From positions 6,138,001 through 6,202,000 of the forward strand of contig CM120649.1 of assembly GCA_051362555.1 (NCBI GenBank): a DNA stretch of 64,000 bases, read 5' to 3'. The DNA is from Lingula anatina. Lineage: Eukaryota; Animalia; Brachiopoda. The notes under the pieces were generated by a model. The model saw nothing but the letters and a program-made list of their open reading frames with translations. It made no database searches and was not told where the DNA came from. The translations under genes were made by a program, and so were the position numbers. Below are positions 1,814 through 64,000 of this stretch, in pieces. Numbering within the stretch: position 1 is the stretch's first letter; every line of letters starts with the position of its first letter.

Positions 1814-3121
1814 ATGGAACTCATCGTCTGGTTTGCCTTTAGTGTGAGTCGGTTCTTTGTCCACTCCCTACAGAACTTATGGTGGAGATACAATGGCATT
1901 ACCAACACTCTGAAACTAACCCGGGCCGGAGAGTTGTACGAACAATCCGCACATATTTTAGATATTCACTGGAGATACAAATGGGACGTCATTCCGCCAA
2001 CGGAGAAATGCAGATTCATTGCTACCCACAATCGCTTCGAACATCCACGGTGTATTCTAGCAGACGTCGTTTCTCTGATTTACCTTGATGAAAACGAGGC
2101 TCTTTTTGTCGAGACCCCACCCAACGTTGATATTTACAATTCGGATACCAATCCCTTTGTATATATGGCACAATATAAATATGCTATCCGTTTAATAGTA
2201 TTGCCAATGGCATCGTTTCACAAAATTGCAGACGAAATCGGTGATCCAAAAAGTGACGTTCTTCTGCTTTCAAATACAGGCCGATGCGGTTCTACGGCAG
2301 TCACACAAATTCTTGAGTCAGTGCCTGGTGTCTTAGCAATGAGCGAACCAGATGGTTTCACTTGTCTTCAAAATATGATAAAAACGGTACATCACGAGAA
2401 AGTCGACAGATACGTACAGAGCGTGACACGAGTCACGTGTAAACCCTTATTGAGAAACCCACGTCTTGTTTGTATTAAAACCAGATCTATGTGTTTTTTA
2501 CATGCCGATAAAGTGGCAAACATCGCACCCAGCATCAAACATTTATTTCTGTACAGGGACGGGAAGGCGACCATCCAGTCCTTTTACCATGCCTTCGGAA
2601 ATGCACCAACTTTCACATTTTGGCATAGCATTCTTACAAGTCGCCTTGCTCATTGCATAGTTCCAAAGCAGAGTCGGCATTTGTGGAACTGGTTCATTGA
2701 CATCGAAACCTACCCAGAGATGAATGACAAGGAATTGATGCTTCGGTCATCAGTCGTTGGAATCCTTGTGGGACACTGGTCGTGCTTGTGCGGAGCGTAC
2801 AAGCGTTTCAAAGCCTCAGGTATGGCGGTAAAGGCCTTTAAGTACGAGGACATACTCGAGAATCCCCGCCACGCATGCGAGAGTTTATTGACGTACTGCG
2901 GACTGCCCATGGAATATGCTGAGACCGCCTGTAAGGCCCTAAGCAAAGATGCACAAAGGGGCATGTATAAAACAAGGACTGCTGCTGACGAACAGGGGGA
3001 TAAATACCATATTAAATGGACGCCCCAGCTCCAGGCTGAGGCTGATTTTTTCTGCGATTATGTTGGCGTCACACGAATCGGCGAACCCACGGCTTTGCCG
3101 GATACTATTTCCTCTCTCTGA
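1814..3121 (+). CDS. Sulfotransferase-like protein ST1 (435 aa, single coding exon)
   Basis: Long ORF with P-loop-like 5'-PAPS-binding motif LLLSNTGRCGST, downstream SEP motif, 3'-phosphate-binding-like FLYRDG and KYED; hydrophobic N-terminus; splice acceptor tttctttttag-like tract ending at 1765 just upstream; clearly homologous to three further copies in the window. Confidence 0.8.
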   Translation: MELIVWFAFSVSRFFVHSLQNLWWRYNGITNTLKLTRAGELYEQSAHILDIHWRYKWDVIPPTEKCRFIATHNRFEHPRCILADVVSLIYLDENEALFVETPPNVDIYNSDTNPFVYMAQYKYAIRLIVLPMASFHKIADEIGDPKSDVLLLSNTGRCGSTAVTQILESVPGVLAMSEPDGFTCLQNMIKTVHHEKVDRYVQSVTRVTCKPLLRNPRLVCIKTRSMCFLHADKVANIAPSIKHLFLYRDGKATIQSFYHAFGNAPTFTFWHSILTSRLAHCIVPKQSRHLWNWFIDIETYPEMNDKELMLRSSVVGILVGHWSCLCGAYKRFKASGMAVKAFKYEDILENPRHACESLLTYCGLPMEYAETACKALSKDAQRGMYKTRTAADEQGDKYHIKWTPQLQAEADFFCDYVGVTRIGEPTALPDTISSL

Positions 3122-3618
3122 ACGTGGTTGTACAATTAGACAGAAGCAGTGTCAGATTCAGCCTCATGAGATTGCACGAGGAAGGCTACGTCTTAAGATC
3201 TACAGCAGTTTCAAACATACCTTAAAAGAAACGTTTACGGATTGGTGAATCCTAACCTTTTATTTCCCAAAAGGGAATGTAGGTACAAACCCAGCATTGT
3301 ATGCATCGTCTCTTCAGCATGTATAAATCAGGTTAAAATGCGAACGCAACATGACTATATATCTCTACTATTGGCAGATTTTTAACACAAAGAAATTTGT
3401 AAATTAGGATCACCACGTACAGTATAGATACTTGTCATATATGTTGGATAAATGCAAAAGAAATCAACAGATTTAAGGATATTGCAGTGATATTGGGGAT
3501 ATATTTTGGAAAATAATGTTTTTAACTAATGCTGAAAATTCCATGACTTTTCTTAGTTTTGGCTACCAAAAATGTTGGCAGGTAAAAGCTTCGAATTGCC
3601 AGATAATTGCAAATAATT

Positions 3619-9028: not shown

Positions 9029-9296
9029 CTACACTGCACCAAAGCAGTTATCTTCATAATAGTCATAACCAGCACCTGCCTGCAAGTCGCCGGATTGGGC
9101 AGTACTGCGCAGTAGTTCGCAGGTACATTGGCCATTTCCGGTACAGAGAACGTTTATAGCCGCACACTCCCAGTGCTGCATACAGGAGATGCTGCATTCT
9201 GTAAGACTGCGGACATTCAGCGTAGATATGGGTGAGAGGGATGCTCGAGCACCTGCTCCTACCAGCTGGAACGTGGTTGTGCTTGCAAAACCTGAA

Positions 9297-9335
<39 letters not shown>

Positions 9336-9372
9336 CTTCATTGTGTACATCATTGTAGTTTATGGAGGACGA

Positions 9373-9409
<37 letters not shown>

Positions 9410-11500
9410 TTAAACGATGCCCTTTGTTTTTTTCTCCAGTTTATACTTTTTGAAACTGTATGGAAGCATTTTGTCGGCTTTTGTGGCCTAATTCTTTACC
9501 ACTGTCAAAAAGGTTATGTTTTTGGTTCCTAAAGTTAGAAAGTTTGTTTCTCAATTGGTTTGTCCGAAAGCAGCATTAAGCAAATTGTTATGGATTGGTT
9601 TTGGTGAAATTTTAAAAACTACATGGACCCAAGTGCAAATGATGTACGAACAAAATCTGGAAGCACAATTTTTAACTTGGGATCCGCCTGTATTGAGAAA
9701 GATTTATAAGCTATCATATACCGTGAACCTCCACTTCACATAACTGCAAGGGCAGGTCGTCACTGCCAACTTTAATGATCAAGACATATCGTCCTCTTAG
9801 TGGAGACCCACAGGACAGAGACGTGTTCCCAACAGGTGCCACCCCCGGGTAACTGGCGCAGAGTCTGTACTGGGTGAATGATGAAGTACCCACAAAAGAG
9901 TATCCAACTCTCACTTCGAAATTAACCAGACGCTCACCTGAAAATGACACGTGGCACGATCCCCAACTTAATTGGCAAATGCTGTGATAGTACTTAGATG
10001 CCATGCAGCGGCATATTAGACAAATAATAAACCGGTTATGCAAATTGCATGTAGTACATAAATGGAAGGATAAATGAAAACATCTCTATATTTGAGAACG
10101 TTGTTACATGTAAATTACCTCCTATATCTTTCTGAACTATTCACTTTTCTCAGTTTATTTTTGCTTCACGCTCTTAGTTAATTTTACATTGTTACATGCA
10201 TGTACATTAACGAAGCATGGATACCACAATAATCAAAGAAAAAATTTACTAGTATTTATGAAACTTCATGCATCAATAGAAGAACGGAAGAGAATATCCT
10301 AATGTTTTATTAATTTAAAGTGAACCCCCCCCCCCCACACACACCCAAATAAATAAATAAATAAGAGGAGAAGAACGCTTACTACAGCATTCGCCTCTGT
10401 TTGTTAGTACGACACCAGCCAGTATTGCCGTGGATTCTAAATCCACCAGCCACCAATTCCCCTGGCCATCCTCTGTATGGGAACAGCTGCCTTGTTGCCA
10501 GTTGTCGTCATAGTTACCGTCCACAGCGAGACTGGCGTTGTAGGACCCTTCGTACATGTAGGTGGAGCTTTGGTGTGCGGGTTTACCTTTCGCCACATCC
10601 CGCGCGCAGCCCCTGCATAGAGGCGCACCTGTCAGGAGTATTAATAATAATAACTATGATAAGAGTACAAATGATTAAGTAATAATCAACCATAACTAAA
10701 TTGATTAATTATCGTCAAAATCTTATCATTTTTTCCTTATCCTATTTTTTTATTTACATTTAAATCAATTAGTTAATTAATCAATTGTTGGATCATCAGC
10801 AAAATCTAATCATTTCTTCTTTTGTCCATTTCTTCCCTATCCTGAACATTTTAAGATATTGACCCATTTGTCACCTAGCTATCCTGAAAATTTTATAGTT
10901 AATTATATATTTATTTAATTTATACATCGTCATCAAATCATAATTATTCTTCCTTGGCTCATTTGTGATCTATCAGGTAAATTTCAGGAACATTTATACA
11001 GTTAATTGATTAATTGACTGATTTGTTGATTTATTCATTAATTAAAACTTGATAATATCTTCTTCGGGACATTAGTGACATAACTGAACATTTTATCAAA
11101 ACCCATTGCGCTTTGCGTAATGCTCTCCACAGACAAATGATAACGCAAACGTAACATTTCGGTAATTTTCAGCTACAAGTTGATTGTTGCAATTATAATA
11201 CCAAAATATTTGCTATTATTTTAAAAGAGATACAAAAGTAGAAAGGATATTTAAAAATGTACATTTTCAAAGGAATTATACAAACAGCTGAGCACAAAAG
11301 TCAATTACATGTATTAGGTGGACAGAATTACGTTCCTACCGTATATTGTACTTGCTAGAGACTTCCAACATATCAAATTTTGTGGAAATTCTTATTTTCT
11401 ATCATTTGCACCAAAGACACGTTAGGCACTCCTTATTGCCCGTTTTACCACACGCAGACTTACCAAGAAGTAGTCTTGAAGTAGTCTATGTGGCCGCCAT
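9029..11500 (-). pseudogene. F-type lectin + PAN/apple gene copy A, with premature stop in signal-peptide exon (exons 11500-11464, 10628-10383, 9937-9722, 9291-9029)
   Basis: All introns GT-AG, phase 1. Exons 2-3 encode VAKGKPAHQSS..LAVDGN..CSHT-x25-RGECCSERL..LCEVEV (F-type lectin); exon 4 encodes C-x3-C..C.A.N..CEL..YDYY (PAN/apple). Exon 1 reads ATG GCG GCC ACA TAG; exons 2-4 remain open. Confidence 0.75.
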
Positions 11501-11650
11501 ACTCTATTATTATCACGGCATCAACGTCTTTGTATGCGTATTTAAATTAAATGCCGACAGACAAATCAAACAGAATGGCCTGTAGTTGCTCAGGGTGGTA
11601 AATCGCACGGAGTGAGAGTGCTGGGTAGAAGTCTCGCTGATTTTTGAATA

Positions 11651-11656
11651 TTTATA
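11651..11656 (-). promoter_or_regulatory. TATA box of lectin copy A
   Basis: TATAAA about 150 bp upstream of the ATG, same position in copy B (20937-20942) and as TATAGA in copy C (26475-26480). Confidence 0.55.
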
Positions 11657-14600
11657 AGGAAACCTTTATATCCATCTTTCATATTTTCTCAAGTGATGTA
11701 CACGTATTATGATATAATGAAGCAGGCCCATTGTATCTTGCATATTGGAAACGAACTTTATCAAATACGTGATTAATCGATCATGATAAAAAGGCACATA
11801 CATTTTGATCATTCAACTGATCTTGTTTCTTCTCTGTCAAAAGACCGTTTACATTAAGCAAATAGCCAGTTTCTAGTTAATATACGACAAACAGAGTGTT
11901 TAAGACACCCGGTAAACCCCCTTTACACAAACAGATTAGTCTTGTGCCTGTTCAATTGTATGGCCAGTTTGCAAGGTCACTTTTTGGAGGTTCAAAGGAG
12001 GCAGCTCAGTTTATATAGGGACTGAAGGTGAATAGGATGTGCACGCGCCACCACCACGGTCACCATGTGGGCGGTGCAAAATTTCGAACATGTTCAAAAC
12101 ATTCGTATAAAGTTCGCGTTAAGGTGGATTACAGAAGGCGGGTAGTCATCAAACATTGGTGTGGTTGCTGAAAGGCTGAATAGATTGGATGCTCAATGTT
12201 CGGTCAGTTGTCTACACGTAATAGGTGCTATTGTTCTTTTCCGCCATTCAGGGCGATGCTACTGCCACTATTGTACCCACATTGTGTCTTCCTTTGCCGA
12301 CCACAATTGTCCATTGGACAATGAAGACGTTGATCGCTGTAACTCCTCAAAAATGATTTTCAAACTTGAAAAACCATGGAAACGTCCATTCCATTTTATC
12401 TACTCACTTGTTTTACTGCTGTCTTAGTTGTACGTCATTTCACCCAGCTGCACGGGCATTTTTACACATAGGCATTGCAAAGTACATTGGATTTCGTACG
12501 TACCCTATATCGTGCAAAAAAGCTCAACTAATCGCTTGCATTATTAACAATGTTTTACTATCGATAATGTTTGTAACCGGCCTTCCAGTTGGTCCATCAA
12601 TTATTATTTTAATTTATTCATCTATTTATTTATTTATTTTATTTTGCGTTCACTCTGAAGTGTGCTTGTACTCACATTTTGCTTTGCTGAATATTATTGG
12701 ATTTAGAGTCACAAACCAAACGTTTTTAAGTGTAGTAGAAAATACGATCGCTTCTACAGGTACGTTTAGTGCTACTCTCAAATGTCTGACTCACCTAGAA
12801 CTGTTATAGTAACGAGCAGCAGGCTTAGCAACACCATACTTTTAAGTAAAATTCTGTAGCAAGAGAATGGCTTTTAAAATGTCCTAGAACAAACAACACC
12901 TAAAGCGAGACTGGCGAAAAAAAGCAAAACCGTGGGCTGAGTGGATCATTTAGAAGAAACCTTACCCCAATTCCACGCTGAATGTAAACAGTGACACAAT
13001 ATCACGCCTTTTTTAATTGTGCCGTTTAAAATCGAAGGTACCCGTGCTTGTAAAAAACTCAGGTGTTTGCACATTCACTGTGTATTCTGTTGAAACGCAT
13101 TTATGCTACACGTAATCTGAGAAAACTTCCGTGACTAAATATTAACAACCGGTCGATAACAGCTGGTTGTAATGCTGTAATCGCATGCCAATAAAAAGGC
13201 GGGTTATATGCTGTTGTGAGGCCCACAAGACACATATTCAACTTTATTCCGAATGTGTGTGTGTGTGTGTGTGTGTGTGTGTCTGATGGACTTGTTTCAA
13301 AAAGTTTTATTAAATTCTCGACCATAAAACAAAATACAGCATGAAACCTAGATGAGATACATGGCAGCTCAGAACAGAGCCATGGGCGTCTAATTAAAAA
13401 TTAATGTCTTCTTGTACAAATATGAGTCACGTCTCTTTACGTAACAATGCTTTCTATTTCGATATGTTGCCTGCAGCCATAGAAAATGTATAAGTATACA
13501 TGTAGCATTGTTCTGCGCCATGTTTAACAAAAAAAGACGACAGAAAGACTGTAATCGGGCATAGCGAAGAATGTTGAAATACACGCTACAACAGAACGTT
13601 GTACAAATGTCAAAGGGTATACGCTTAAATTATTTTGGTTTTCTACAACATATTATAGCATGATCATTCATTTGCAGTGCCCGATCATGTTTCGTGCATT
13701 AATGACGAGACTTTGACTCATGACTACACAATAAATTAAAAAAAAAACATTTTTTAAAATAGATACATATGAATAAAAGCAAATTCGGTTACCTGTATGT
13801 AATTATGAGCGTTACCATTTTAAAGTGGCCTTGTTTCTTCAAATGCAATACCGACAAATGGGTACCTGGATATTCTGCAAAAGGGCAGAGGTGGGTTTAT
13901 CATATGAGTTTGCATCAATATTCTGCAGCAACAATGCTGCAAACTAAAAGTTTGTAGTAATGATTTTGCAGGGGTTTTGAAAGAAAAATATTATTGCTGC
14001 TAATTTGCAGCCATATTGCAGCAACTTACACGAATTGATTGCAGTTAGCAGCAATTTTTCAGGCCTGAAATGCTACTCAGGGAAGCTAATCTGTTTGTAA
14101 GCTGGGGTGACTTCATTCACGTTTCATTTACCTATTGTTTACAAAGGTGGGGCAACAATGGAAATCATCCTAATTACGCTAAAATGAGGCTGGCGACAAT
14201 AAACAGCATATGAGGTTAACTTTATTGCGATAAGACTTAAACTTTGTCTCAGAAATCAGTACAAAAAGTATCTCACAAATCATGGTGAATACATTAAGTT
14301 AATTGCTGTGCATAAGAAAGCAATTCTATTAAGAGAAAAACAACAACGAAAGTATTCCTTAATAAGCTACATGTATGTGACATTTTCATTTGTTGGCCCT
14401 ACTTCATATCAACCAATGTACATGTTGCGTCACTTTCCGAGCATCAAATAGGACTTGTGTCTGATTGCATTGGTGCAAATGACGTATTCTAGAACATTGT
14501 TTGTGTGCCAGATCCAGCTGATAGTAAACACTGCAAAACCACGCGTGTTTACTGTAAGGCAACTGAAGTATCGGTTTATGATATAGAAATGTTGCAGGAA

Positions 14601-16840: not shown

Positions 16841-17217
16841 CTACACTGCACCCAAGCAGTTATCTTCATAATAGTCATAACCTGTGTCTGCCTGCAAGTC
16901 GCCAGATTGGGCAGTGCTAGGCAGTAGTTCACAGGTACATTGGTCATTTCCGATACAGAGAACGTTTATAGCTGCACACTTCCAGTGCTGCATACAGGAG
17001 ATGCTGCATTCAGTAAGACTGATGAAATTAAGCGTGGATATGGGAACAAGGGATGCACGGGCACCTGCTGCTACCAACTTGTACCTTGCTGTGCTTGAAA
17101 TACCTGGAATTATTATATATTATTATTATTATTTCTTACTTTGTAAAATACATAACCTTCATGATGTACTGTAGTTCATGTGATAACGACATAATAATAA
17201 TAATAATAATAATAATA

Positions 17218-17261
<44 letters not shown>

Positions 17262-24040: not shown

Positions 24041-24326
24041 CTACATCTCGGTGAACACTGCACCTGAACAGTTCTCTTCGTAATAGTCATAACCAGTACC
24101 TGCCTGCAAGTTGCCGGATTGGGCAGTACTGGGCAATAGTTCACAGGTACATTGATCATTTCCGATGCAGAGAACGTTTATAGCTACACACTCCCAGTTC
24201 TGCAAACAGGACATGCTGCATTCAGCACGACTGATGAAATTCAGCGTGGATATGGGCACAAGGGATGCACGGGCACCTGCTGCTACCAACTTGTACCTTG
24301 CTGTGCTTGAAATACCTGGAATTATC

Positions 24327-24370
<44 letters not shown>

Positions 24371-24431: not shown

Positions 24432-24465
<34 letters not shown>

Positions 24466-42991: not shown

Positions 42992-43200
42992 GAATCCTGC
43001 GATCGCACTTGTCCGTTCAACATTAGGAGGATTTTATTATTTTTTATTCGAGAAAATTATATACTTTTACACTGAGATGTGCACTTGGGACTGCAACAGA
43101 CTTATATGATTCCTTACATTTCTTGTTATTATAAGGGACAAAGCCAATGGATTTCAGAGCATTCTAGCCCAAACTTACGAGCACCATTTTCTGCAAATAA

Positions 43201-48700: not shown

Positions 48701-48733
<33 letters not shown>

Positions 48734-49102
48734 TTGAGCCCTGGCACTCTCGAAAAAATTTACCCCCCCCCCCCCGCCCCTTATTTATTTAACCATTTCA
48801 CCTCTTCAGCCCTGATTGTTACATTTAACATAATAGGAAAGATGTGAATCAAATTTCTTGTTGCTGAACCCAGTGACATTAATATAAAGTCGTTTTAATA
48901 GTACATAAAATCGCACCAAGACCTCATTGGAGTACATATATATAATTACACCCTTTACAGCAACCGGACCCCTTAATTGATGTACACTGTACAATGCACG
49001 TATATACACTGCAATTGCCGCTTTCACCTCCTTTATTGTTCTGTATGAAAAGGAAGGAAGTTGTTTGAGTTTAGTTCAATAAAGGCAGTCCCTTAGTCCG
49101 AG

Positions 49103-52100
49103 CTAAGATCTAATAAACAGAAAGATTGGACACTCGACGATTCTTCAAAGGGTAATCCGATTAACTGTGGAAAGACGTTCGTACGGCGGAAGTAGTCAGT
49201 CGCGTTGTGATCTTGCGCAGGTAGAGCTCTGTTGCATGTGGGCGATTTCAAGGTAGGTAAATTACCTCTTTTAGTCTTGTAGTTTCTCTGAGAATGTATG
49301 TGCAGAAGGGAAAACTAACAGGGTTCACTTGTGTGTAAAATATGCAATATTTTGGAGCAGATATTATCGTGAAAATTTGCCTTCAATCCGTTGTTGCATT
49401 CAAATTAGCAATATGGCGACAAACAAGCGAGTTTGAATGCTTTGTTACCTAAGGTCTAACACGGGGAGTAAAACTTAATGTACGTTGGTTTTTATATTAC
49501 TGATGACTGAATAACACTGTCGTTTTATTGGTTGATAATTTAATTTATAGTAGCTTCGTTTTCTATGAAAATTTAAACAATACTTCGGGCAATAAAGCAA
49601 AATGGCGGTGCTGATCATAATCGCCGGGGTTAAAATGCACAGCCGAACACGAAAGTGGATCTATACAATGCGTTGGCAGTTTAACTGTGTCCATCTAAAA
49701 AAGTAGTGGAAGGTCGTAGGGTCAAACTTAGCTAAACTTAAGCTTTTTTCTTAGGAATATTTAACGGTAAAGATGACAATAAAACAAGATGGCGGCGACT
49801 TTTGTTATCGATGGGCTTCAAATGCACAGCCAAACACGAAATAAGATCTGTACTATGCATTGGCAGTTAAACTGTGTTCATCTAAAAAAGTAGTAGAAGG
49901 TCGTAGGGTCAAACTTAGCTAAACTTAAGCTTTTTTTCTTAGGAATATTTAACGGTAAAGATGACAATAAAACAAGATGGCGGCGACTTATGTTATCGAT
50001 GGGCTTCAAATGCACAGCCGAACACGAAATTAAATCTGTACTATGCATTGGCAGTTAACCTGTGTTCATCTAAAAAAGTAGTGGAAGGTCGTAGGGTCAA
50101 ACTTAGCTCAAATTTAGTTTTTTTTCTTAGAAATATTTATCGGTAAAGATGACAATAAAACAAGATGGCGGGGACTACAACTGGTGATATTTTTACCCAG
50201 GATTTATAAGTAATGAGAAGATTGCGTGAAAATGTGCCTCACATCCTTATTATTTTTTTGTTTTGTTTTGTTTTGTTTTCAGATGCCATTAAAGTGGGTC
50301 AAGGCCCGCAGGAGAAAAAATATAGAGCAAAATCTGGCAGCAAAATCAAAAGGTAAGCTTTCTGGTCTATAACTAGAACTTTTTAGTTTATGGAGTTGAA
50401 AGTAAAATGTCTTACATACTTGGGCACTATCAATCTGTCCCTTGTGTGTCATGCTCAGTAAGATATTTCCACTGTACCGACAACATTATTACAAGTATCG
50501 GATTTCCACTGTACCAACATTATTACCAGTATCGGATACAAAAAGGCAGGTGCAATCACCACAGTGGATTGAGTGGAATTATACCAATGACAAATAATAA
50601 GAGACTAGCACATGTCAGAACCTTTTTAACAGTAAAATATTATTTTATTATTTCGGGTGAATGTCATAATGCAAGTGTTGCAGATGATTTAGATGCACCA
50701 CTGTCAAGTTTGCAAAGTGATTGTAAACAATCAAAAAGACACAGATGTATTAAATAAGCAAAATGGTAAGCTGCCCGAAATTAAATATTAAATTTTTGCT
50801 CGATAGTTTTACAAGTGCACGAAAAGCTAGGTCAGTGTTGTCCGTACAGTGGACTTCAACATAACATGAGCAATTAACACGTCAGCATCTTTTTAACTGT
50901 GTGATAATATTTTTTTCAGATATATGTTGCAATGGAAGTGATTCTGATGACGACGTACCTCTGTCAAGTTAACTCGGTGCTACTCAAGAACCTGACAGGC
51001 ACATTGATATTTCAGCAAATGGACCACCTTGAAACTAGCCATATGTTGTTCTTCATGAAAAACAAATATATCACTATAAATTGTCTCCCTTCTGTAAACT
51101 CTGAAGTTTAGTTTACTGTCAAGTCTAGGTTGGAATTAGTCAGTAGTGCTCTTAACAATAGATAAATATTATCATCACGTGCATAATTTTTATTGAATGA
51201 GATATTAATGTTGAAACAAGTCAAAATAGGGGGAAAATGCTATAATTCTTTGTCATGTGAAACTAGTACTCCTAAATAAATTACCTATCTGTTGTGATTG
51301 TGTAACAGTCAGTGCTATCTAAAGGTGTTAACATTTTTATTTGCATTTCAATATCTGTGCCTTATTAAATCTATAATAAAATGCTTATGAACGGAATATG
51401 ACTTGTATTATGTTACTATATCAGCCAGAAATGAATGATCAGTTTTAAATGCTAATCTGATGAAATATTGATAATTTTTAGCAATCATCTTTTATTTAGT
51501 CATTTTTAGTGAGATGGCAAACAAAATTGTTACACATATTATTCTTCCAGTACATTCTGTGGAAGATGTTCAAAAGACATGTGTTTCAAAACAGATTTTG
51601 CAGAGTTTAAAAATATGTGCATGATTATGAAGTCGCAAGGAAACTATATTGCATGTGTTCTTTATAAATATGAAAAAACTAGTTTACTTTTATTTGCTTG
51701 TCAGTATAAAGATATGTCTTACCTTTCACTATCATTATGAAGTAGGTACCCAAATTAGTGTTTGTGAAAGTGAAATTAAAAACTACTTTTTCTTAAAGGA
51801 TTTTTTTCAGTCCTTTTTGTTTCACTGATTTGCTACGAATATTCTGGTGAATTTGAATTGATTATGCTCTAAAAGAATGACCGCTAATAGTGACAAAGTT
51901 TTACAAACATGCATAATAGATCAAGTCTCTGTTTTGGTGTAGCTTCACCATTCAGTTTCTCCCAGTGATTAGCATGACCTTATTGTCCAAAACGGCATCG
52001 AATATCACTATCTGTTACGTTGATGATCTCGTCACGTTTCCGGCTATATCTCCACGTTGAGTCAATTTCTATAAAATGGCAGCTGTTGTTACAGGTAGTG

Positions 52101-52433
52101 CGCTATTGGGTATTGCCTCCTCTGAATATAAAGTATTAAGACAACTACGAAATGTAAACAAACTGTACATCTTTAGAACTTTTTAATAAAAAAAACTCCA
52201 CGTGTGCCATTGCTTATCCAATATGGCGGATCTACTTGACGACGATGTGGCGTCCGCGAGAATGCACGAGAAATCACGCTATTCGCTAAACACGGGTTAG
52301 GTACAATGGGGATTAAAATTAAGCCCGGCTATCAAAACAACTTAAGGGGAACAATAGAGCAATGTTTACCCGTACGAACGTCTGGTCAAAGGGAAAATGC
52401 CGCTGTCCAATCTTTCTGTTTATTAGATCTTAG
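49103..52433. mobile_element. Nested non-autonomous DNA transposon with 30-bp perfect TIR and 7-bp TSD (P-element-like by inference)
   Basis: TIR CTAAGATCTAATAAACAGAAAGATTGGACA at both ends; GTCCGAG duplicated (49096-49102, 52434-52440); an unoccupied paralogous site ccttagtcccaggtgcac lies at about 53532. Confidence 0.88.
49590..50171. repeat. About 188-bp tandem repeat, 3 units
   Basis: AARATGGCGG anchors at about 49599, 49786, 49974 and 50162. Confidence 0.9.
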
Positions 52434-55400
52434 GTCCGAGGTGCACAGCTTTTAGCTTCTGTTGCAGATGATTTAACTTAAAATAAATTAATTGATATGC
52501 TGTTTTTCTTTATGGACTTTTAATTAGGCCACATTTGGAGTAAATATGAAATTATATTTGAAACATCTTAGTGAAATCTATCTTGACATCCTGACAGATG
52601 TGTTTAGATAAACGTTTATGTGCGAACGTTGTTTAGTACTGTATAGCAAATGCACATCTCCCGTCTGGACACAATGAAGAGATAACTTTGAGGGAAATTG
52701 TCAAGACTCTTTCTTCTATCATACCGGTATATTAATTATCGACGGAGACGCACTACCAGAAATTACCTCGTTTCGATGTTTAACGCACTAATGTAGATCA
52801 AATTAACCTTTTCAGGTCTATGCCTGACATCACTTACAAAACTCCAGCATAACATGGATTGCCAAGTGTGGTTGTTTTATGTCGGCGACACCATTTCAAC
52901 CTGTGTAAAGCGTGACTTACTGCATTTCTTCAGAAATGCGGGCTATAAGCAAGCAAAATGATATACAGTATTTGCCCTTGTAAATGCATTTGTATTTAAA
53001 TATTTAGAATAGTGATAAAGTTGTTTTAAGACTGCCTGTTTTTCAAAATGTCCTCAACATTCCTCATATAACGATGATAGTTGTCGAGAGAATTGTGCGC
53101 GATATGTTTCGAGAGGAGAATAAATACGTACGTAATTACATGTATACACAAGTACAGTTAATGTACGCTGCAGGAACAGGAAAATATTTCGGCGTCATTC
53201 TTCAAATATCAACTGTACAAGTGAGTCCCTCTCTTGATGCTTTTTAAGTTTCAATACAAGTAAATGACTGTCCCACAGACCAGTTGTACAAATGTTTTTC
53301 GATTTTTTCTTAAATATGAATGTTTACATGTGTGGTGTATCAAACTCCATCGCATTGAAGGATGAGACCAGCTTGTGACCACCATTGCAGATAAAATCGC
53401 AACTACATTGTAGGGCTTCTTATCTGATGCACGTTTGCACGTTGTAATTGTTCCTTTCGCCGCCCGTTATTGTTCCCTCGGAAAAGAAAGGAAGTTGTCT
53501 TTGTCTTCAATATGTTTAAGATTAGGCAGTCCCTTAGTCCCAGGTGCACAGCTTTTAGCCTCTGTTGCAGATGATTTTATTTAAACTAAATTAATTGATA
53601 TACTGATTTTTTCTTAATGCAATTATAAGTAAGCAACATTTAGAATAAATATGTAACAATTATTACACTTGATACATCGTAGTGAAATCTATCTTGTCGT
53701 CTTGACAAATGTGTGTATATTTGTTTGTGGACCTTTGACAGTGCTGGAGAGGGTACACATTTGCACCCATCTTAGTGCCATGAAGAGTTTACTTCCTAAT
53801 CTCTGTAGTGGCGATGCTCTTCGTAGTAAATTTTTTAATATCATTCAACTAGGAAAAAAGACATTTTCATAAATTAACCAAGGCTTATAAACACGTCCTG
53901 AAATAATGATAATGTACAGCGTATTTATTTATTTTTGTTATTTTTATTGACTTGTAGATTGAGTGTAATGTTGCCAAATACTATTATTTGCAGACAGATA
54001 TGGAGTGGTAGAGTGCGATGATGGTGGGGTCGTTAGTGTCGACACGTCAAAGTTAACGACGGTAGACGGGGGGAAAGTAATGGTTGGGGCCCAAATTGTA
54101 TTTTCTGCTAAACCCGCTTTATATATTCCCGTTTAACTGACGAAGTACAGTAAGTAGATGTTTTGATTTTTGAAGTAATAAGAAGCGGTGCAATATTTAC
54201 CGGACAGCAATTAGCGGCTATTAATACCATCACGCCTAAATGCATACGCTTCCTGAATAAGACGGTCGCCCCCTGCCAGGTTGAGAGATCGGGACACGCT
54301 CTCCTGCCTCGCGACTGGCTAAATATCCATTGTTAAACGATCCTCCTACTTCCATTGTTCAAAAAGTGGGCGGTAGGCTTGGTCACGGTGAAGAGTAACC
54401 GTGTCCGTAGACACGATCACGGTAGTGAGAACAGATTAAAAAGCCTAGCTGTACTTCCGTGACCTACTTTCCTACCCCATTGACATACAGCTTAGAATGC
54501 CAGCAGAAAAATCTGTTCAAACATCATTTTCGGGTAAAATTAAACAATGCCTTTTGGTAATTCTCTTAGTTATACTACTTGAAACTATATGCTGGCATTT
54601 GGTTGGTTTTTGTGACACAAAATTGACTTTGTATGCATCTTTAAGCTACTACCTGTATATGAGGTACATTTGCTGTAATTACGCTGTCCTTCATGTTTTG
54701 CGTTAGTCTACATTTTGCTGTACGTGCTTGTATTTTTTTTAATCTGTGCGTACAACTTTTGCAGGTCTGGTAACTCCCCTGTTATGTGATGAAAGTCTAA
54801 ATTTGGCAATTACATGTAGTTCCTTAGCTTATTTCAATAGAATTGCAGTGTAAAAAATTCAACAAGATGTTGGCACAATAGCCCTTTACTCTTTGTGGGT
54901 ATTTCCCCCGTCAAAGTTTATCTATTTATCTAAAAGTATCTTTCAATCTTTGCTCTTTTTCCTGTTTTTCCTCAACACGTTTACTTCCAAGGAAGTAATG
55001 CCTGGGCATACGCATGCTTAAAGATACCCTGAGAGCAATTTCTGTTATTAATGTTCGCGACCGTGTTTGATCACAATTGTTTAAATATTGATATTTAACG
55101 TCATTTACAAATTCCAATAAAATAACCCCATGAAGTAAATGAGATATATTGAGAAATATTAAAGCCCACCAAGACGAGTTTGATACCTGTTATTATCTGG
55201 CTTGGGGATTGCAGCAGTGCATAATTAGCAGGTTTTATTGTTAACAAGCTCTTGGTCAACTACAATGTATTTAAAATGCATCAACAGTTAGTAAGCTTGC
55301 CAACTGAAGACAGGTAATCTAAAAGACTATTAGCTTTTGATGTGATCTAAAACACCTGAGGTGACCGAGATCGCGAGCATCGCAACTATTGTCACCGAAG

Positions 55401-57294
55401 TTAGTAAGTCACGGAAGACCGTCACAGACAAAGAAAGATTGTCAAGGAGTGCTGCAATTATGGTGAATCCCACGGCAACACACTGAGGCATGAAGAAAAT
55501 TGTTCAACTCCGTTCAACACAACTTTCTTAAACTATTGTCTGTATGCACCATGCAGCTCAGGTAAGTATCATAGACCTTTATCCTCCTTGTCGTCTCAGT
55601 ACCCATGACCCAGATCTGTTGCTTCATTTATGCAAGGTGAGGTTTACTAAAACGCTTTTTTTCTACTAATAGATTGTTTTTATAAATTCTTAATGACGGG
55701 GATCGATTAAAACATACCTGTAGTGAATAGATTGAGTGCTGAATAGTCAAAATTCGAGAAATGGATTTTTGTGGGTCTATTCTCCTGACATACTCCGAAC
55801 CACCAACACCACGAGCACTGACCTTCCACTGACTATTGTATCCTCCGAATGGTTAGCCCCGTGCACCTCAACAAAAGCACCAACTATGATTTTGCCCCTA
55901 CTCGCCTATACGCATAAAAGATTTACGAAATTGCACATTAACAAAGTATTGGTTCGGGGGCGCTGAAGAGCCCCCCCCCCCCCCAAAAAAAAAAAAAAAA
56001 AAGAAGGTATTTTAGAGGGCAATGGTGCCATTTGGCACGGGTTGGAGCTTGATTCAGCTTATCAAAATTTTCAAGAGGGAACCAAAAATCGAAGGGGGGG
56101 GGGGGGGTTCAGGCCCCCCGACCCCCCTCTAAATCCGCCACTGACAGTCAGTTGGAATTGGAAGCTCATCAAATAATTGTTCAATCTATTCGTCTTCAGC
56201 AAAAACCACCGGTTGATTTCCTAGGAGATTTTAAAGATTTTGTACCAATTGTCAAGTCTCTCCTGTTAACATCTGCACCAACACGTCTTCTTTTATTTCC
56301 CATATATTCGTAAAGTCGTCACCAGTTTTTCTTGTATTAGACAACATCAGGGGATGCGTGTTAATCTGATTGCATTCAGCGAGAGAACCGGCGGAGGCGA
56401 GTAGATATACGTCGAACAATAGTTTCATTGGGAATGAGCCAGTAAACCCAATACAAATAGAAATAACACGAAAAATAGGAGTAGATGTATTATGTTATAA
56501 TGTTATAAATATAACAGATGATAATGTAAATAAACCAGTGGACATATGCAATTAGATAAATATCAACGAAATGCACGACATTTTTCTCCTTTTCGGTGTT
56601 TTTTTCCTGTTTTTTTTAACTCGTTATTCTTAAAAGTGGTTGATATTTTGCAAAGGTATAAAGAATATTTTTTCATTTCCCCGGCTATCACTATCTAGTA
56701 TGTATTTTTCAGAGAAAATGAAACTTTTCACTTGGATCATGTTCTGCATATGTCGATTTATTTTCGGCAGAGTTCAACGTTTGTGGTGGAGAATCACCGG
56801 AACCGCTAAAACACTTCGTCAAATAAAAGATGGCCAGTTGTACGAAAAATCAGCCCATGTCAGGCATATCATCTGGAAGTGTAAATGGGATGAGTTATCT
56901 CCGACCGACCCTTCCAAATTTATCACCACACATAGTCATTTTGACCACCCACGATGTATACTAGGAGACGATGTGAACTTAACCTTCATAGATGAAAACG
57001 AAGCTTACTTTGCTCAGATGCCCTTGTCAGTAAACATATTAAGTTCTGATCTGAGTCCTTTCTTATTCGCTGCGATATTCAACCACGTGTATCGAGTGAT
57101 AGTCATGCCAATTTCATCATTTCACAGAATCGCAGATGAAATTGGTGATCCTAAAACTAAAGTGCTTCTGCTGTCAAACACTGGGCGTTGTGGATCAACG
57201 GCAGTCACACAAGTCTTGGAATCGGTCCCGAGGGTTGTGACAATGAGCGAACCCGACAGTTTCACAAATATCATTATGCTAAGGGAAAAATTAT

Positions 57295-58069
57295 CACTGC
57301 ATGAAAAAACACCTTTTATCGCCTTTCATTTATCTACAAAATGTTATCGAAAGATGATCCCTCATCTTTGATCATCTTTTCCTGACGAAAAGGTCATCTT
57401 TCACCTTTCAATTGTAAAAGGTCATCTTTTTATCAACTTTTATCTCTCGGAAAGACCATCATTCACATTTTCATTAACTTTCAGTTTTCAAAAGTTCAAC
57501 TATCACCTTTTACAGTGCGAAAGGCCACCTTACATTCCGTTTTTGTTTACTGGAAAGGTCACATTTTGTTTATCTTTTATTTTCCGAAAGCTTAAAACTG
57601 ATTTTATAATATCGCGTGGTGATCTTTTGTATATATACTTTTTATTTTATGTACATGACTTAATTCCGCATTTTACAGTAAGCGCAGTATGGAAAAAGCG
57701 AATACTTTTGCAAATTGTTTGCATGATGAAATGTTTTGGACTTTGATTAAAGTATTCAACAGATAGATTAAATGTGGTGCTTTGCATTTTGGAGAAATAA
57801 TTACGCAATCTTAGATTGGCTGGAGTATATGTACAAATATATAGCATTCAGTGCAGTGAAAGAAATGTTCACCGCCTTCCACCTGAGGTAGACATATAAT
57901 TTTGACGCTTTGAACTACAAACAACTTTCAGAATCGAAAGTAACTTATATTTTTATTCCAATATTGTCAGGATTTAAATACAGCAAATCAAAAATTTTTA
58001 TGTCAGAAGTCACATCTCCATATTTGCCTAGATAATTTCTTTCACAGGAAATGATCTCCATCGCCATGA

Positions 58070-58113
<44 letters not shown>

Positions 58114-61100
58114 GGACAGAAGCTATCGTTGCTGTCTCAGTTATGTCAGGATTTTTGCATTGACTGTCAAAAAAGTGCTTGAGGTCACCTCTCCATAATT
58201 TGCCTGGCTAGAGGATCGTCTCTAAACAGAAAACCACCCCTCCTCAACAAAAAAGGCAATAGGATCTCTCGTCACTAACTGTTATTTTCAGTAATGTCAG
58301 GATTTTTGCATTGATTGCACCAAGTCAAAATAGTGTTTGAGGTCACCTCTCCATAATTTGCCTGGCTAGAGGATCGTCTCTAAACAGAAAACCACCCCTC
58401 CTTGACAAAAAAGGTTATAGGATCTCTCGTCACTTACTTTGTTATTTTCAGTGATGTCAGTATTTGCACTAATGGAAGCAGGTCAAAATAGTGTTTGAGG
58501 TCACCTCCCCATAATTTGCCTGGTTAGAGGATTGTCTCTAAACAGAAAACCACCTCTCCTTGACAAAAAAGGTTATAGGATCTCTCGTCACTAACTTTGT
58601 TATTTGCAGTTATGTCGGTATTTGCACTAATTGTAGCAAGTCAAAATAGTGTTTGAGGTCACCTCCCCATAATTTGCCTGGCTAGAGGATCATTTCTTAA
58701 CAGAAAACCACCTCTCCTTGACAAAAAAGGTTATAGGATCTCTCGTCACTAACTTTGTTATTTGCAGTTATGTCAGTATTTGCAGTGATTGTAGCAAGTA
58801 AAAATAATAATAATAATAATTACAATATATGCCAGAGGCCACCTCTCCATAGTTTGCCTGACAAGGGGATCGTTTCTAAGGAGAAAACCACTCTACAATT
58901 CTTATGATGTGTTTAAGGCTCCAGAGAGCAAGTTTTATCTCATGCATAGTCCCTAATAGTAAGGCCCTGGGCATGATGGAAATATTTCACTGAAGTTAGA
59001 TAAGTAGTAATCAGCTATGCAGTTTGAATTTGTTTATATTGGAAATGGTAATATTATTGACAGACTGTAACTGTTTGCATATCCCTAATTCATCTTGCTT
59101 ACACTGCTGTAGTTAATCTAAATATCAGAGGAAAATTATCAACCATACATAACTGTTTGCTTATTCTCCTTGCTCAGAGCGAGTCAGTCTCTCCTTTACT
59201 ATTTTAGCATGTTTAAGTCCATAAATCTGACAGAAAGGGGGTCTGAGGTAAACACAGTGAGGTTATACATGTAGGTTAACAATTTCTATTGTGGCTGCAG
59301 ACTGGGAATTCATGTAACAGGAACACAGAAACGCAGCCTTCTTTTAGATGTTCATCTCTTTTCTTGTGACGACAGGCACTCCTTTTTCATCCTTGGGACA
59401 CCCCATTCCTTTATAAAAGAAAAGACATACTGAATAATTGAAACATGGAAGTTTATGCTTGAATTTCAAGGATTTGAAGCCATATCATGATATAGTACCA
59501 AAACAATTCAATTGCTAAAGCTGAGCGTTACCATATCTGCACATCCACGATACTGGGTAACAACACTGTGACATAAGCATTGAAATTTCAAAGTGTTTTT
59601 GCTTTAAATTCATAAATTTTACGAAATGTAACATTAAACACATATAAAAATAATTCGGAAAGAGTTTACTTAACTCCAAAGAGATGGGAGAGCATGCTAC
59701 GATCCTGAACCGTAAGTTTCATTTAATAATCATGTGACCTGGTCATTATGTCATGGAAATCTCCACTCTTTATGCTTAAGTCCCTGGGCCGAATCTGAAT
59801 GGGGAAATGAGACTACACGCTAGCTGTGATTTGGTTGTCGTGCATCAAAGCCCCCCCCTTGTAATCCAACACATGGGAATATTTTGACACACTTTTAAAA
59901 TGATAACCCCTTGTTGTTACCCCGTATCGTGGACGTGCAGGTATATTTCCAAAGTTCACAGTGAGTATAACCGGTCAAACGTTAGAACAGACAAAAGCCA
60001 AGCCCAATGAAACTCAGTATAATTCGATCCTTTCTCAAGAGACGGCTAAATTACCCTGCAATATGCAGTGCTTCGAGAAAGAATCCCGCTTTAATCCCAG
60101 AAGCATGCTTTGGCTATAATTTGTGTTAAGATACACTGTGCGAACATTACTGAAATCACTATTTCACCTACCTTGTGAAACGATGACCGGCTGCCCCCTG
60201 TCTAGTGATCTATATTATTGCCTCTTTCTGTTTTAGTCTTGAATAAAACAAGAGGCAAAAGGTGCGTTCTTCTTGCCATTAATATAGCGTTAGGTCAATG
60301 CTAGAGAATCGGCGCGAAAGATATCCCATTACAGACTATCTGCGCGTGCGCACGGCCAGGCGGTTAAAAATGCGCGGGGACTGCTAGGCTGTGTAGGCCG
60401 GTCACAGAAGATTTTTTAAGCCTCCGTATTGATTATGGTCGACTTCTTTGCAAGATGGCGTTTGTTGCGGCGATAATATAACTGATGAGGATGAAGAGAA
60501 GGTGTAAATGCCTCAGGTAGGTCTAATATAACATTTGAATCAATCATATTTAAGGGAACATCCGTGTCAGGGACGACCAAGAGGGCTTTTATGCACGGAG
60601 AACAGACCGTGCCGAAATAAGATTATCACGATCGTAAAACAATAGTTAATCAAACTTTATGACCTTTTTATTAGAATACTGCAAAAAGTTTACGTCAAAG
60701 TACGGCCACGCGTACAAGTAAAGATTCTGTACATGTATTAAACTGGCCTGTATTAATCCCATTGAGTCGACCTACATTCCTTGACCTAAATTCCAGGCAG
60801 GGTTATATAATCAATGCACTGGTTCACTCGCAGGGTTCAAACAGGACTTTGACTGCTTGAATGTAGCATTGTACGTGTATTCAGTCTGTTTATGACATTT
60901 AAAGTACTTGAAATTGCTATTAGCCTTACCAAGGCCTTGTATTTCATTATTTTTGTCTTAAAAGTACTTGAATTTGAACAGTTAGAAATTTGTTGAATGA
61001 TTATTACGAATCTTGTTGTTTTTAACCTGAATGTAGACAGTAGCATGCTGGGGGAATGCCCTTTTTAACCTTTCAATTTTTTCTCATGTTTCGTCATTAG

Positions 61101-62680
61101 TGTATTAAAATACAAAGTTTGTGTAAAATGATGCACCTCTTTTCTATGTAAACTAAAAATGACAGTAAGGCCATTAAAAGAGTCATTGAAAAGGTCTTGA
61201 TTCAGAGCCTCAGAAATCCTTCAATTTGCTTTTATGTTGCTGTATGAATCCTGAGCAGTAATCATGTTTTCATCAATGAAAACTGTTTGTATGATATTAC
61301 ACTAAAAGAATTCACTGTCTTAAAAAATCTCTTTATTTCTTTTCCAGATGCTATTAAAAGACAGGCTTTCTACATGGCTGAATAGCATATAAAAGCAAAC
61401 AAAGTGGATGGACTAAAGCAAAATAATTAGAAGAGAAGAATGGGGTATGTAATACAGGAGCTTTTCTAAGTTCTGTACAAGGCCCAATCAAGTTGCCTAT
61501 CAGTGATAATGAATGCATATTTTCTTCATTACTTGTAGCTATTTCATTATTCATATTTCCCTAATTGAAAACTTTTTACATGATATTACATTAAAATAAT
61601 TCACTCTTTCTATTTCTTTACCAGGTGCCATTAAAAGAAACTACAGATCTGAAAAGTAGGAGGATGTTCTAAAACAAGCAAAAGGACTGGATGAGCTTAA
61701 ACAAAAAATATGGAAAAAAAGGAAGAGGTACTATCATAGGATGCTTTTTAAACCTTGTAATATCTGTTTTTAAGCCTTTTGATGGCTTTAAGTCCATAGT
61801 TTGAAAATTAAACATAATAAAAGTGGGCATTGTTTTTATCGTATTTGATTAGCATTAAAATGGACTGTTACCAAAAAACAATATTTATCATTACATACAT
61901 CCTATTTTCCAGGAGGCAAAAGGGAAAGATTTGGGCAGGCAAAGTGTTCACTTGACAGACGCTTCCAGAAAAACTACTCCCACGAGAACGAGAAGTTACG
62001 CATATATAGTAGGACTAGTGGATCTGGCTGAAAGTACATTTAGAGAACATTTCCTGGGCCTTTCTTGGATTATCAAAACAAAAAATCAAAGTTCCTTGGA
62101 TTATCAAAAAACTTTCAAAAGACAAGCGCAACCTGCACAAAAATGTTATAATGGAATAAATTATAAAAGTTTATACCATGTGTTGTTCTGTTTTATCAAT
62201 ATATTATTAAAGCGCCGCAATAAATATAACAGTAAAATACCTAACAAAAGAAGGAAAAATATAGTCTTTTCTTAAATAAAAAGGTTTGAAAAGGCTATCT
62301 TTTGTATCTGGAAAGTTGCACAAAAGGCATCCGAAAGTTGGACTTTTTGGCAGGAAAAGGTAGAGAAAAGTGGGTCATTAATATACCTTTTAGCATACAA
62401 AAAGCTGATGAATGATGAACTTGAGAATACCTTTTCTTCAAGCAAAAGATCGTCTTTTTGCAGCAAAAGGTGTATGAAAGTTCAACTTTTGTGTAGAGAA
62501 AAGGTGAAGAAAAGTGGGCCATTTGTAAACCTTTTTCACTTATACAAAAGTCATTCAAAAGATCGTCTTTTACACCTTTCCTAAAAAAACGAAAGGTCTT
62601 GGAAAGATGTGAGAAGATGAATAAAAGAAGGCCTTTTGATCACCTTTCACGATATATAAAAGCTGATTTTTCATGCAGTG
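57295..62680. mobile_element. CACTG-ended (CMC/EnSpm-like) non-autonomous DNA transposon, 5386 bp
   Basis: TIR CACTGCATGAAAAA (imperfectly extends to about 23 bp), 3-bp TSD TAT, subterminal AAAG..CTTT repeats at both ends, no transposase ORF. Confidence 0.9.
57965..58893. repeat. About 158-bp tandem repeat, about 6 units, inside the CACTG element
   Basis: Unit anchors TGTCRG at 57965, 58144, 58295, 58455, 58613, 58771; core gaggtcacctcYccataatttgcctgg. Confidence 0.9.
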
Positions 62681-64000
62681 TATCGAATGAAGATTTGGAA
62701 AGATTTATACAGAGCATGATAAGAATCACGTGTAAGCCGCTGAAATCAAACCCTCAGTTAATCTGCATTAAGACGAAGTCCATGGATTTCAACCACGCAG
62801 ACATAGACGCCCGTCTGTTTCCCGACATGAAACATCTGTTCCTCTACCGAAATGGCAAAGAAACCATACAGTCGTTTTATCACGCCTTTGGGTTTTTGCC
62901 CAGAGTCAAACTTTTCCATGGGATGCAGACTACTCGCCTTGCCCATCGACTTTTACCAAACTTAGCCAAATTCCTTTGGAGCATGCTTATGGTGCCTAAT
63001 CTTCCTTGGCTTCAAGACCCAGAACTTATGATTAAGACTTCCATGGTTGGCATGATGGCGGGTCATTGGTCAGTGCTTTGTCACAATTATATCCGCTTTA
63101 AGGAAGCAGGTATGGACATCAAGGCTTTTAAGTATGAGGATCTTCTTGAGAACCCACAGCATGCCTGTGAGAAGTTGCTAGAATACTGTGGCTTACCCAT
63201 GGAATACACTGAGGAGGCCTGTAACGCCCTGAAACACGATTCCCAACGAGGCATGCTACGATCAAGGAAAGACACGAAAGATAAAGACAGCAAGTACCTT
63301 ATCAAGTGGAACAATCCTGATGTGTTAGCAGAGGTTAATTTCTTTTGTGATCAGGTAGGAATTACACGTATAGGAAAACCTACACTTTTGCCAGATACCA
63401 TTTCTTCCCTGTCTTAAGAATTCTGGAATCGCACTTAATATTAGGAGGACATTATAATTTATCCTCAGAGAAAGAAATATACAATGAGACATAAATTCAT
63501 GGCAATATTATTCAAAGATGTTAGTATGTTTTTGTTGATAAAACGAGTGAGAGAATGCAAGGAAAATCAGAGAAATTTGAAAGAATCTTGAACCTTGAGG
63601 AATGATGTTTATGTGGCAGTCTCGCTATAGGGTTTTAATATGTTGAACGGGGCGATTTAACCTGTGACACGCAAATCAGTTGGAAGTGGTTTGAAGGTCA
63701 CAATAACATACTGTGTACATGTTATATCAAATAAACTCATTTTAACATGATTAATCGATTTGGATTGTTTCTTCTTATCATTCTTACTCTTTATATTCAT
63801 GTAATTGTTAAATGCACGTGTTAATAAACAGGTTGTTTTGTCGTTATCTTTGTGTGTTTGCCTTTGTTGGAAATTATAACTGAGTTTGCCTTTCCATGCA
63901 TTGTAGATTACCAGACTTTATATAGTTTCTCAAGTAAACCCGCATTCAAAAGTAGCTTTACTTAATGGGAACATTGCGTTTTGCGACAGATAATCACCAC

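What the first reader, a model, noticed from the sequence alone, without database searches (positions are those of the whole stretch)
1814..63417. Candidate glycan writer-modifier-reader gene cluster in an animal genome: sulfotransferases + Golgi-type glycosyltransferases + fucose-binding lectins
Seen: the only host genes recognised in 64 kb belong to three unrelated families (4 ST, 2 GT plus a fragment, 3 F-type lectin-PAN); the lectin array is bracketed by a GT+ST pair on each side, and all three families show birth-and-death turnover. Established: DxD type II proteins build glycans, PAPS-dependent sulfotransferases decorate them, F-type lectins bind fucose, F-lectin domains occur in oyster sperm bindin, and sulfated fucans act as species-specific egg signals in sea urchins. 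Inference: the locus may co-inherit enzymes making a sulfated/fucosylated glycan and the lectins reading it, as a self/non-self, gamete or symbiont recognition or mucus system. Physical clusters of non-homologous pathway genes are rare in animals.
Basis: partly seen in the sequence, partly recalled or inferred. Interest (0 to 1): 0.85.

Follow-up and report, generated by a model that had tools for sequence, protein, structure and literature searches.

The report
Nested glyco-gene arrays in brachiopod Lingula
A stretch of a lamp-shell (Lingula) genome holds three interleaved arrays of duplicated genes - predicted sulfotransferases, predicted sugar-transferring enzymes of an uncharacterised family, and predicted fucose-binding lectins - but they are likely a fast-turnover gene neighbourhood rather than one sugar-writing-and-reading system, although the two enzyme types may work together.

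Summary
The window is Lingula DNA. It carries ST1 and ST2 intact, ST3 and ST4 broken, two intact type II DxD GT-A genes plus a fragment, and three intact F-type lectin-PAN genes with the full fucose motif. The writer-modifier-reader reading is weak. The two GT+ST 'brackets' are not one duplicated module (opposite geometry; ST1/ST2 dS saturated, GT1/GT2 dS 0.40). Annotated Lingula GT and lectin paralogs sit on different scaffolds. In 7 RNA runs the families did not move together (one run: ST on, lectin and GT near zero). The ST is nearest to tyrosylprotein sulfotransferases and looks amphipathically anchored, without stem or sequons, so it may not share the GT's lumen. One result points the other way: relatives of this GT lie next to heparan-type sulfotransferases in 2 of 22 informative contigs from distant eukaryotes, never next to a lectin. 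The GT is an uncharacterised DUF6492-like family whose nearest solved fold is Stealth phosphotransferases, but it keeps DxD. Verdict: nested birth-and-death arrays 0.55, GT+ST bundle 0.28, full system 0.12.

The parts
1814..3121 (+). ST1, intact single-exon ORF, PAPS-dependent sulfotransferase fold, 435 aa
   Evidence: 97.5% to RefSeq XP_023933437
3619..5214 (-). GT1, type II DxD GT-A protein, exons 5214-5019 and 4754-3619, 443 aa
   Evidence: fold of GT2
9029..12837 (-). LecA, signal peptide + F-type lectin + PAN, exons 12837-12795, 10628-10383, 9937-9722, 9291-9029
   Evidence: 98.8% to XP_013421155
11464..11500 (-). decayed second copy of lectin exon 1 (early stop) inside LecA intron 1
16841..20781 (-). 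LecB, exons 20781-20733, 20260-20015, 17881-17666, 17103-16841; about 1.6-kb element with inverted ends in intron 2
24041..26318 (-). LecC, exons 26318-26270, 25785-25549, 25087-24872, 24315-24041
   Evidence: exon 2 is 100% to first half of XP_013421146
27733..28122 (-). GT fragment, C-terminal about 130 codons only
   Evidence: 74% aa to GT1 and GT2
29537..31171 (-). GT2, exons 31171-30952 and 30675-29537, 452 aa
34161..35474 (+). ST2, intact, 437 aa
   Evidence: 96.8% to XP_013421147
41679..42991 (+). ST3, pseudogene (start lost, frameshift, two stops)
56718..63417 (+). ST4, interrupted copy (56718-57294 and 62681-63417)
57295..62680 (.). 5.4-kb DNA element in ST4, short terminal inverted repeats and a 3-bp target duplication; CACTA/CMC-like (class name recalled)
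35678..63482 (.). recent tandem duplication of a spacer+ST unit (97-98% identity), or two haplotypes assembled in tandem

Best explanation
The window holds three nested tandem arrays (ST outside, GT inside, F-type lectin-PAN in the middle) that gain and lose copies, and the families likely act separately, staying linked by history rather than by a shared pathway. Shown: gene identities, intact and broken copies, different duplication ages, purifying selection. Predicted: the lectins are secreted fucose-binding proteins, likely recognising foreign or mucus glycans as other invertebrate F-type lectins do; the GTs are luminal Golgi enzymes adding a sugar to an unknown acceptor; the STs are catalytically intact PAPS enzymes, probably held on a membrane surface by an amphipathic helix and acting on a phenolic, peptide or lipid acceptor. 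Inferred history: an old ST pair flanked a GT-lectin segment, and repeated unequal crossing-over then multiplied each family.
For: Ages differ: ST1-ST2 56% aa with saturated dS, GT1-GT2 78% with dS 0.40, lectins dS 0.17-0.33, ST3-ST4 dS 0.02-0.06. All computable dN/dS are 0.17-0.47, with no diversifying signal in the lectin domain. The 3 annotated Lingula GT paralogs and the 4 off-locus lectin hits lie on 3 + 3 different scaffolds, none shared. RNA run X4: ST2-type depth 5-12 and ST1 1-6, while GT bins free of repeats are 0 and lectin bins at most 0.21; X6: lectin 4-10, GT at most 0.8. ST N-terminus has an uncharged run of 10 residues against 20-23 in GT and 0 sequons against 5-6, and is modelled with high pLDDT from residue 1, i.e. 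no floppy stem. Nearest ST structures are TPST1/2, Z 13.9, rmsd 3.7-3.8, 221-224 aligned. No glycosyltransferase among 50 neighbours of bacterial ST relatives. No ST or lectin fusion in 45 long GT homologs. Lingula has extensive family expansion, including 30 carbohydrate sulfotransferases (PMC4595640, passages).
Against: GT relatives sit directly beside heparan-type sulfotransferases in 2 of 22 loci with at least 1.5 kb flank, from two distant clades; rough binomial P 0.002-0.036, post hoc, with assumed frequencies. The nesting means the linkage has outlasted several duplication rounds, and GT and lectin duplications are of similar age (dS 0.3-0.4). Run X8 has all three families at low depth together. 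ST2's best 19-residue hydropathy is 2.11, as high as GT2's, so a true transmembrane anchor is not excluded. GT1/GT2 themselves were not found among annotated proteins, so unannotated GTs beside other lectin loci could be missed. RNA tissues are unknown, depths are low, and reads differ from the window's copies.
Confidence: 0.55

Rival explanations
1. GT and ST form a two-enzyme biosynthetic bundle: the GT extends a secreted glycan (mucus, shell or pedicle matrix, glycolipid) and the ST sulfates it; the lectin array is a bystander.
For: GT-family genes lie beside HS3ST/NDST-like sulfotransferases in L065 (animal clade) and L056 (protist clade, also beside DUF268), and beside a weak FUT8-like gene and a GT4-type fragment in L052. 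Animal bundles of non-homologous pathway genes exist (PMC12833800, passages). Carbohydrate sulfotransferases are expanded in Lingula.
Against: Those neighbours belong to another ST subfamily; the window's ST profile hit none of 42 GT loci. ST topology and sequon data lean away from the lumen. ST is expressed without GT in X4.
Confidence: 0.28
2. Full writer-modifier-reader locus: GT and ST make a haplotype-specific sulfated or fucose-bearing glycan and the lectins read it (self/non-self, gamete or symbiont recognition), with linkage kept by selection.
For: Only these three families were recognised in 64 kb. The fucose motif is complete in all three lectins. Haplotypes appear to differ: a RefSeq model has two LecC-like exon-2 copies and RefSeq has an intact ST3/4-type gene; ST alleles differ at 11 of 435 and 14 of 437 residues.
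Against: No fucosyltransferase recognised here (animal ones are GT-B; recalled). The F-type pocket binds the 3-OH and axial 4-OH of fucose (PMC5712786, passages), so sulfate there would be expected to block binding (inference). 0 lectins among 25 Pfam-identified neighbours of GT homologs. Lectin dN/dS below 0.5, unlike the positive selection reported for oyster bindin. Expression uncoupled.
Confidence: 0.12
3. On chemistry, compatible with any of the above: the 'GT' is a Stealth-like sugar-1-phosphate transferase that makes phosphodiester-linked glycans rather than plain glycosides.
For: Top four wide fold matches are Stealth enzymes: GNPTAB Z 15.1 (rmsd 5.7, 241 aligned), 14.3, 14.2 and CpsY 14.0, ahead of Kre2 12.9; Foldseek's top three rows are also GNPTAB.
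Against: 149 of 187 family members show DxD at the motif and none NDD, whereas 4 fetched bacterial Stealth proteins have NDD. No Stealth Pfam hit in 25 members, no PDB sequence hit. Profile comparison with a 4-sequence Stealth alignment was uninformative (probability 0.6%).
Confidence: 0.2

Closest known systems
F-type lectins (eel agglutinin AAA, striped bass FBP32, oyster bindin)
   Same: RefSeq LecA matches FBP32 at E 1e-42 and AAA at 1e-21; His-Arg-Arg triad, vicinal cysteines and Ca motif present
   Different: Single lectin domain fused to a C-terminal PAN domain; no diversifying selection seen; ligand untested
Tyrosylprotein sulfotransferases TPST1/2
   Same: Best fold (Z 13.9) and best sequence-profile match (E 4.5e-7); PAPS-binding motifs align
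   Different: 13-16% identity; extra N-terminal domain of about 140 residues; no stem or sequons; family also in bacteria without the anchor and in nematode- and chordate-rich clusters
Stealth phosphotransferases (GNPTAB, CpsY); DUF6492; STELLO-fused GTs
   Same: GT-A fold nearest to Stealth; weak DUF6492 hits in 11 of 25 members; 17 of 45 long homologs carry a STELLO N-terminal domain
   Different: DxD instead of NDD; stand-alone type II protein in an animal clade with a Lingula-specific expansion; donor and acceptor unknown
Animal biosynthetic gene clusters/bundles (sponge oro; coral terpene and mollusc clusters as cited in PMC12833800)
   Same: Non-homologous enzyme genes side by side in an animal genome
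   Different: Those are conserved across producer species and biochemically validated; neither is shown here, and a lectin 'reader' is not part of the passages read

Membership tests
F-type lectin | His...Arg-x-Asp/Glu-x4-Arg/Lys fucose motif | tested here: met
   H-x26-RG(D/E)CCxxR in LecA, B, C; spacing equals AAA His52/Arg79/Arg86 (the review's text writes X24)
F-type lectin | h2DGx calcium motif and vicinal Cys-Cys | tested here: met
   present in all three exon-2 translations
F-type lectin | binds L-fucose | not testable with these tools
   needs a glycan array
PAPS-dependent sulfotransferase | fold plus 5'-PSB and 3'-PB motifs | tested here: met
   Pfam above cut-off; invariant R157, E178, K222, R248, S256; fold; catalytic roles recalled from TPST
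Golgi carbohydrate sulfotransferase (CHST/HS3ST type) | type II anchor, stem, luminal domain, closest kinship to glycan STs | tested here: inconclusive
   amphipathic N-helix, no stem, 0 sequons; TPST Z 13.9 against NDST/3-OST 11.6-11.7; ST2 hydropathy 2.11 leaves a TM helix open
GT-A glycosyltransferase, type II | GT-A fold, DxD, N-terminal TM helix | tested here: met
DUF6492 (PF20102) | score above the Pfam cut-off | tested here: not met
   13.6 and 14.9 bits against 22.9; some homologs pass
Stealth phosphotransferase | NDD in conserved region 2 and Stealth Pfam regions | tested here: not met
   DTD in window GTs; NDD in 4 fetched Stealth proteins
Animal biosynthetic gene cluster/bundle | linkage conserved across related species | tested here: inconclusive
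   same families on one scaffold in another L. anatina assembly; no other brachiopod genome reachable; GT beside a different ST subfamily in 2 of 22 loci
Animal biosynthetic gene cluster/bundle | co-expression of members | tested here: inconclusive
   uncoupled in X4 and X6, jointly low in X8, tissues unknown
Animal biosynthetic gene cluster/bundle | enzymes act in one pathway | not testable with these tools
   needs assays

The most novel reading that the evidence does not exclude
The locus is a polymorphic glycan writer-modifier-reader supergene: an uncharacterised Stealth-fold GT and a TPST-like sulfotransferase build a haplotype-specific surface mark that the co-inherited F-type lectin-PAN proteins read, giving a brachiopod a glycan-based self/non-self or gamete-recognition system.
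Probability: 0.12. Interest if true: 0.85.

Novelty: new member of a known kind. Interest (0 to 1): 0.42.

Why it matters
If the arrays are only neighbours, the window is still a handle on two uncharacterised animal enzyme families: a DxD GT-A family of cnidarians, molluscs and brachiopods whose nearest solved fold is Stealth (the term DUF6492 is in 0 papers of the library searched), and a TPST-like sulfotransferase family. If GT and ST are coupled, it points to an unknown sulfated glycan pathway. If the lectins are coupled too, it would be a linked glycan signal-and-receptor locus in an animal; two searches found no paper holding the combined terms, which does not show that none exists.

Tried and rejected
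No genome is held for the window, so synteny was judged only from scaffold lengths and accessions of RefSeq proteins. No RNA holder was listed by the index; 7 of the 9 same-species raw-read runs were laid. No GT relative in viral contigs. DUF6492 did not ring in 5 bacterial genomes nor in the controls, so that search is uninformative. Profile comparison GT against Stealth (4 sequences) and against GT8 (2 sequences) was too shallow to decide. The window's ST profile missed the two neighbouring sulfotransferases, which Pfam then found. High depth at 6.3-7.0, 18.0-19.9, 28.7-29.9 and 33.1-33.7 kb comes from repeats, not from the genes. Rejected: one duplicated GT+ST module (ages and orientation differ); LecA as a pseudogene (its true exon 1 is at 12837); the lectins' C-terminal Tyr-acidic stretch as an ST substrate (it falls in the last strand of the PAN domain; recalled). 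The careful GT tree did not finish; quick and FastTree versions are cited. No complex prediction was run. Look-ups of earlier findings by place, sequence and a long word list returned nothing; a shorter word list returned 8 prokaryotic or phage notes that do not bear on this locus. Paper searches. Supplements were not read; those of PMC4595640 (expanded families, tissue expression) could bear on co-expression.
Full report
Source. The proteins of the window match named Lingula anatina RefSeq proteins at 96.8-98.8% (ST1, ST2, LecA), all on one 218,620-bp scaffold together with an ST3/4-type gene and a second lectin model. The window is therefore Lingula DNA, from another haplotype or assembly than RefSeq. 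No whole genome was available.

Anatomy. In order: ST1(+), GT1(-), LecA, LecB, LecC(-), GT fragment(-), GT2(-), ST2, ST3, ST4(+). Seven genes give open spliced models with GT-AG introns. ST3 is a pseudogene and ST4 is split by a 5.4-kb element with terminal inverted repeats and a 3-bp target duplication. The lectins lie in units of about 7.5 kb and ST3/ST4 in a 97-98% duplicated unit. That identity is close to the species' reported heterozygosity of 1.6% (PMC4595640, passages), so ST3/ST4 could be two haplotypes assembled in tandem. The other ORFs tested are transposon pieces or have no family.

Lectins. Signal peptide, one F-type domain and a PAN domain. All three keep the His-Arg-Arg triad, vicinal cysteines and calcium motif described in PMC5712786 (passages), and RefSeq LecA matches solved fucolectins. 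Fucose binding is thus predicted. The pocket uses the 3-OH and axial 4-OH, so sulfation at those positions would be expected to block binding (inference). Pairwise dN/dS is 0.35-0.47 overall and 0.37-0.47 in the lectin domain; oyster bindin, by contrast, is reported under positive selection.

Sulfotransferase. The model is confident (pLDDT 91). Best matches by fold and by profile are tyrosylprotein sulfotransferases (Z 13.9; E 4.5e-7), ahead of heparan and cytosolic enzymes at Z 11-12. PAPS-site residues are invariant across 22 aligned members. The substrate is open. The N-terminal helix is amphipathic, has an uncharged run of only 10 residues, packs without a disordered stem, and ST1/ST2 have no N-glycosylation sequon, against 5-6 in the GTs. 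Across 12 + 12 homologs, sequons per Asn are 0.079 against 0.219 (p 0.001; related sequences, not independent). This leans to a surface-anchored, cytosol-facing enzyme, but ST2's hydropathy peak of 2.11 leaves a transmembrane anchor possible. Bacterial relatives (23 loci) show no glycosyltransferase among 50 of 75 selected neighbours from 15 loci.

Glycosyltransferase. Type II protein with DTD and a GT-A fold (pLDDT 89). It has no Pfam family above cut-off, only weak DUF6492. The family is wide: 1,699 representatives at E 0.001, with mollusc- and cnidarian-rich clusters. The five Lingula proteins form one clade. 17 of 45 long homologs carry a STELLO domain and none an ST or lectin domain; STELLO proteins are Golgi GT-like proteins of plants (PMC4906169, passages). 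The top four wide fold matches are Stealth phosphotransferases (Z 14.0-15.1 against 12.9 for the next family), but the family keeps DxD (149 of 187) where Stealth has NDD. It is most likely a true glycosyltransferase from a lineage near Stealth. It is unlikely to be the fucosyltransferase, since animal ones are GT-B (recalled).

Is it a pathway cluster? Against: the two GT+ST brackets differ in geometry and age. Annotated GT paralogs (3 scaffolds) and off-locus lectin hits (3 scaffolds) share no scaffold; these searches are word-limited and did not find GT1/GT2 themselves. In RNA, 7 of 9 listed runs were laid: four on 16.7-35.6 kb at 93% and four on 1.6-11.7 kb at 85%, X4 on both. X4 has ST reads on the sense strand with GT at 0 and lectin at most 0.21; X6 has lectin 4-10 and ST1 up to 2.5 with GT at most 0.8; X8 has all three at about 1-4; X5 has none; X1, X3 and X7 have at most 0.6 on LecB/C, GT2 and ST2. 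Tissues are unknown and reads often fit other alleles or paralogs: lectin reads fit LecB at 5 of 7 listed sites, ST reads fit ST3/4 at 6 of 9, GT reads fit GT2 at 1 of 5.

For: of 42 GT-family loci from metagenome contigs, 22 have at least 1.5 kb of flank. Scans of 30 long and 148 of 234 shorter ORFs identified 25 neighbours. Two are heparan-type sulfotransferases directly beside the GT, one in the animal clade and one in a protist clade; two more are glycosyltransferase-type; none is a lectin. With assumed ST frequencies of 0.3-1% the chance is 0.002-0.036, post hoc and on a small sample, and the ST subfamily differs from Lingula's. Haplotypes also appear to differ in lectin exon content and in which ST copies are intact, which fits both fast turnover and a recognition locus.

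Comparison and verdict. Animal bundles of non-homologous biosynthetic genes are established and are defined by conservation across species and by biochemistry (PMC12833800, passages); neither is shown here. Expansion of glycan-modifying families is reported in Lingula and in Alvinella (passages). The other papers in the searches were seen as listings only. Best reading: nested birth-and-death arrays acting separately (0.55); GT+ST bundle with bystander lectins (0.28); full writer-modifier-reader system (0.12). Interest 0.42, carried by the two uncharacterised enzyme families and the recurring GT-ST neighbourhood.

Noticed in passing
L065:1789-5088 and L056:2-3487: GT-family gene directly beside an HS3ST/NDST-like sulfotransferase in two distant eukaryotes; L056 also has a DUF268 gene on the other side
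   Followed up: partly
L052:292-4775: GT-family gene flanked by a weak FUT8-like gene and a GT4-type fragment
   Followed up: no
L025, L026: tandem arrays of 3 and 2 GT-family ORFs in animal-clade contigs; tandem turnover is common in this family
   Followed up: no
P0014, P0089, P0100, P0105, P0133 and others; L033, L036, L037: the GT domain is fused behind a STELLO N-terminal domain in many homologs outside the animal clade, suggesting two-GT proteins
   Followed up: partly
window 57295-62680: 5.4-kb CACTA/CMC-like element with clean ends inserted in ST4; no transposase recognised by Pfam
   Followed up: partly
window 17955-19628: element with inverted ends in LecB intron 2, covered by RNA reads that probably come from copies elsewhere
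   Followed up: partly
window 6570-6920 and 28830-29470: high-copy repeats with very high RNA depth (over 1,500 per strand in X8 at 85% likeness)
   Followed up: no
window 43312-43782 and 48420-48788: retrotransposon-tail fragment (ALKBH8_N hit) and DDE_3 transposase fragment
   Followed up: no
window 49633-50176 and 58166-58806: tandem repeats of 188 bp (2.9 copies) and 158 bp (4.1 copies)
   Followed up: no
window 1813-1930: run X8 reads differ from ST1 at 11 listed sites in about 120 bp, far above the reported 1.6% heterozygosity: a divergent allele, a paralog or a cryptic species
   Followed up: no
P0057 (XP_013421146): RefSeq model fuses two LecC-like exon-2 copies with a LecB-like exon 3: a haplotype difference, gene conversion or an annotation artefact
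   Followed up: partly
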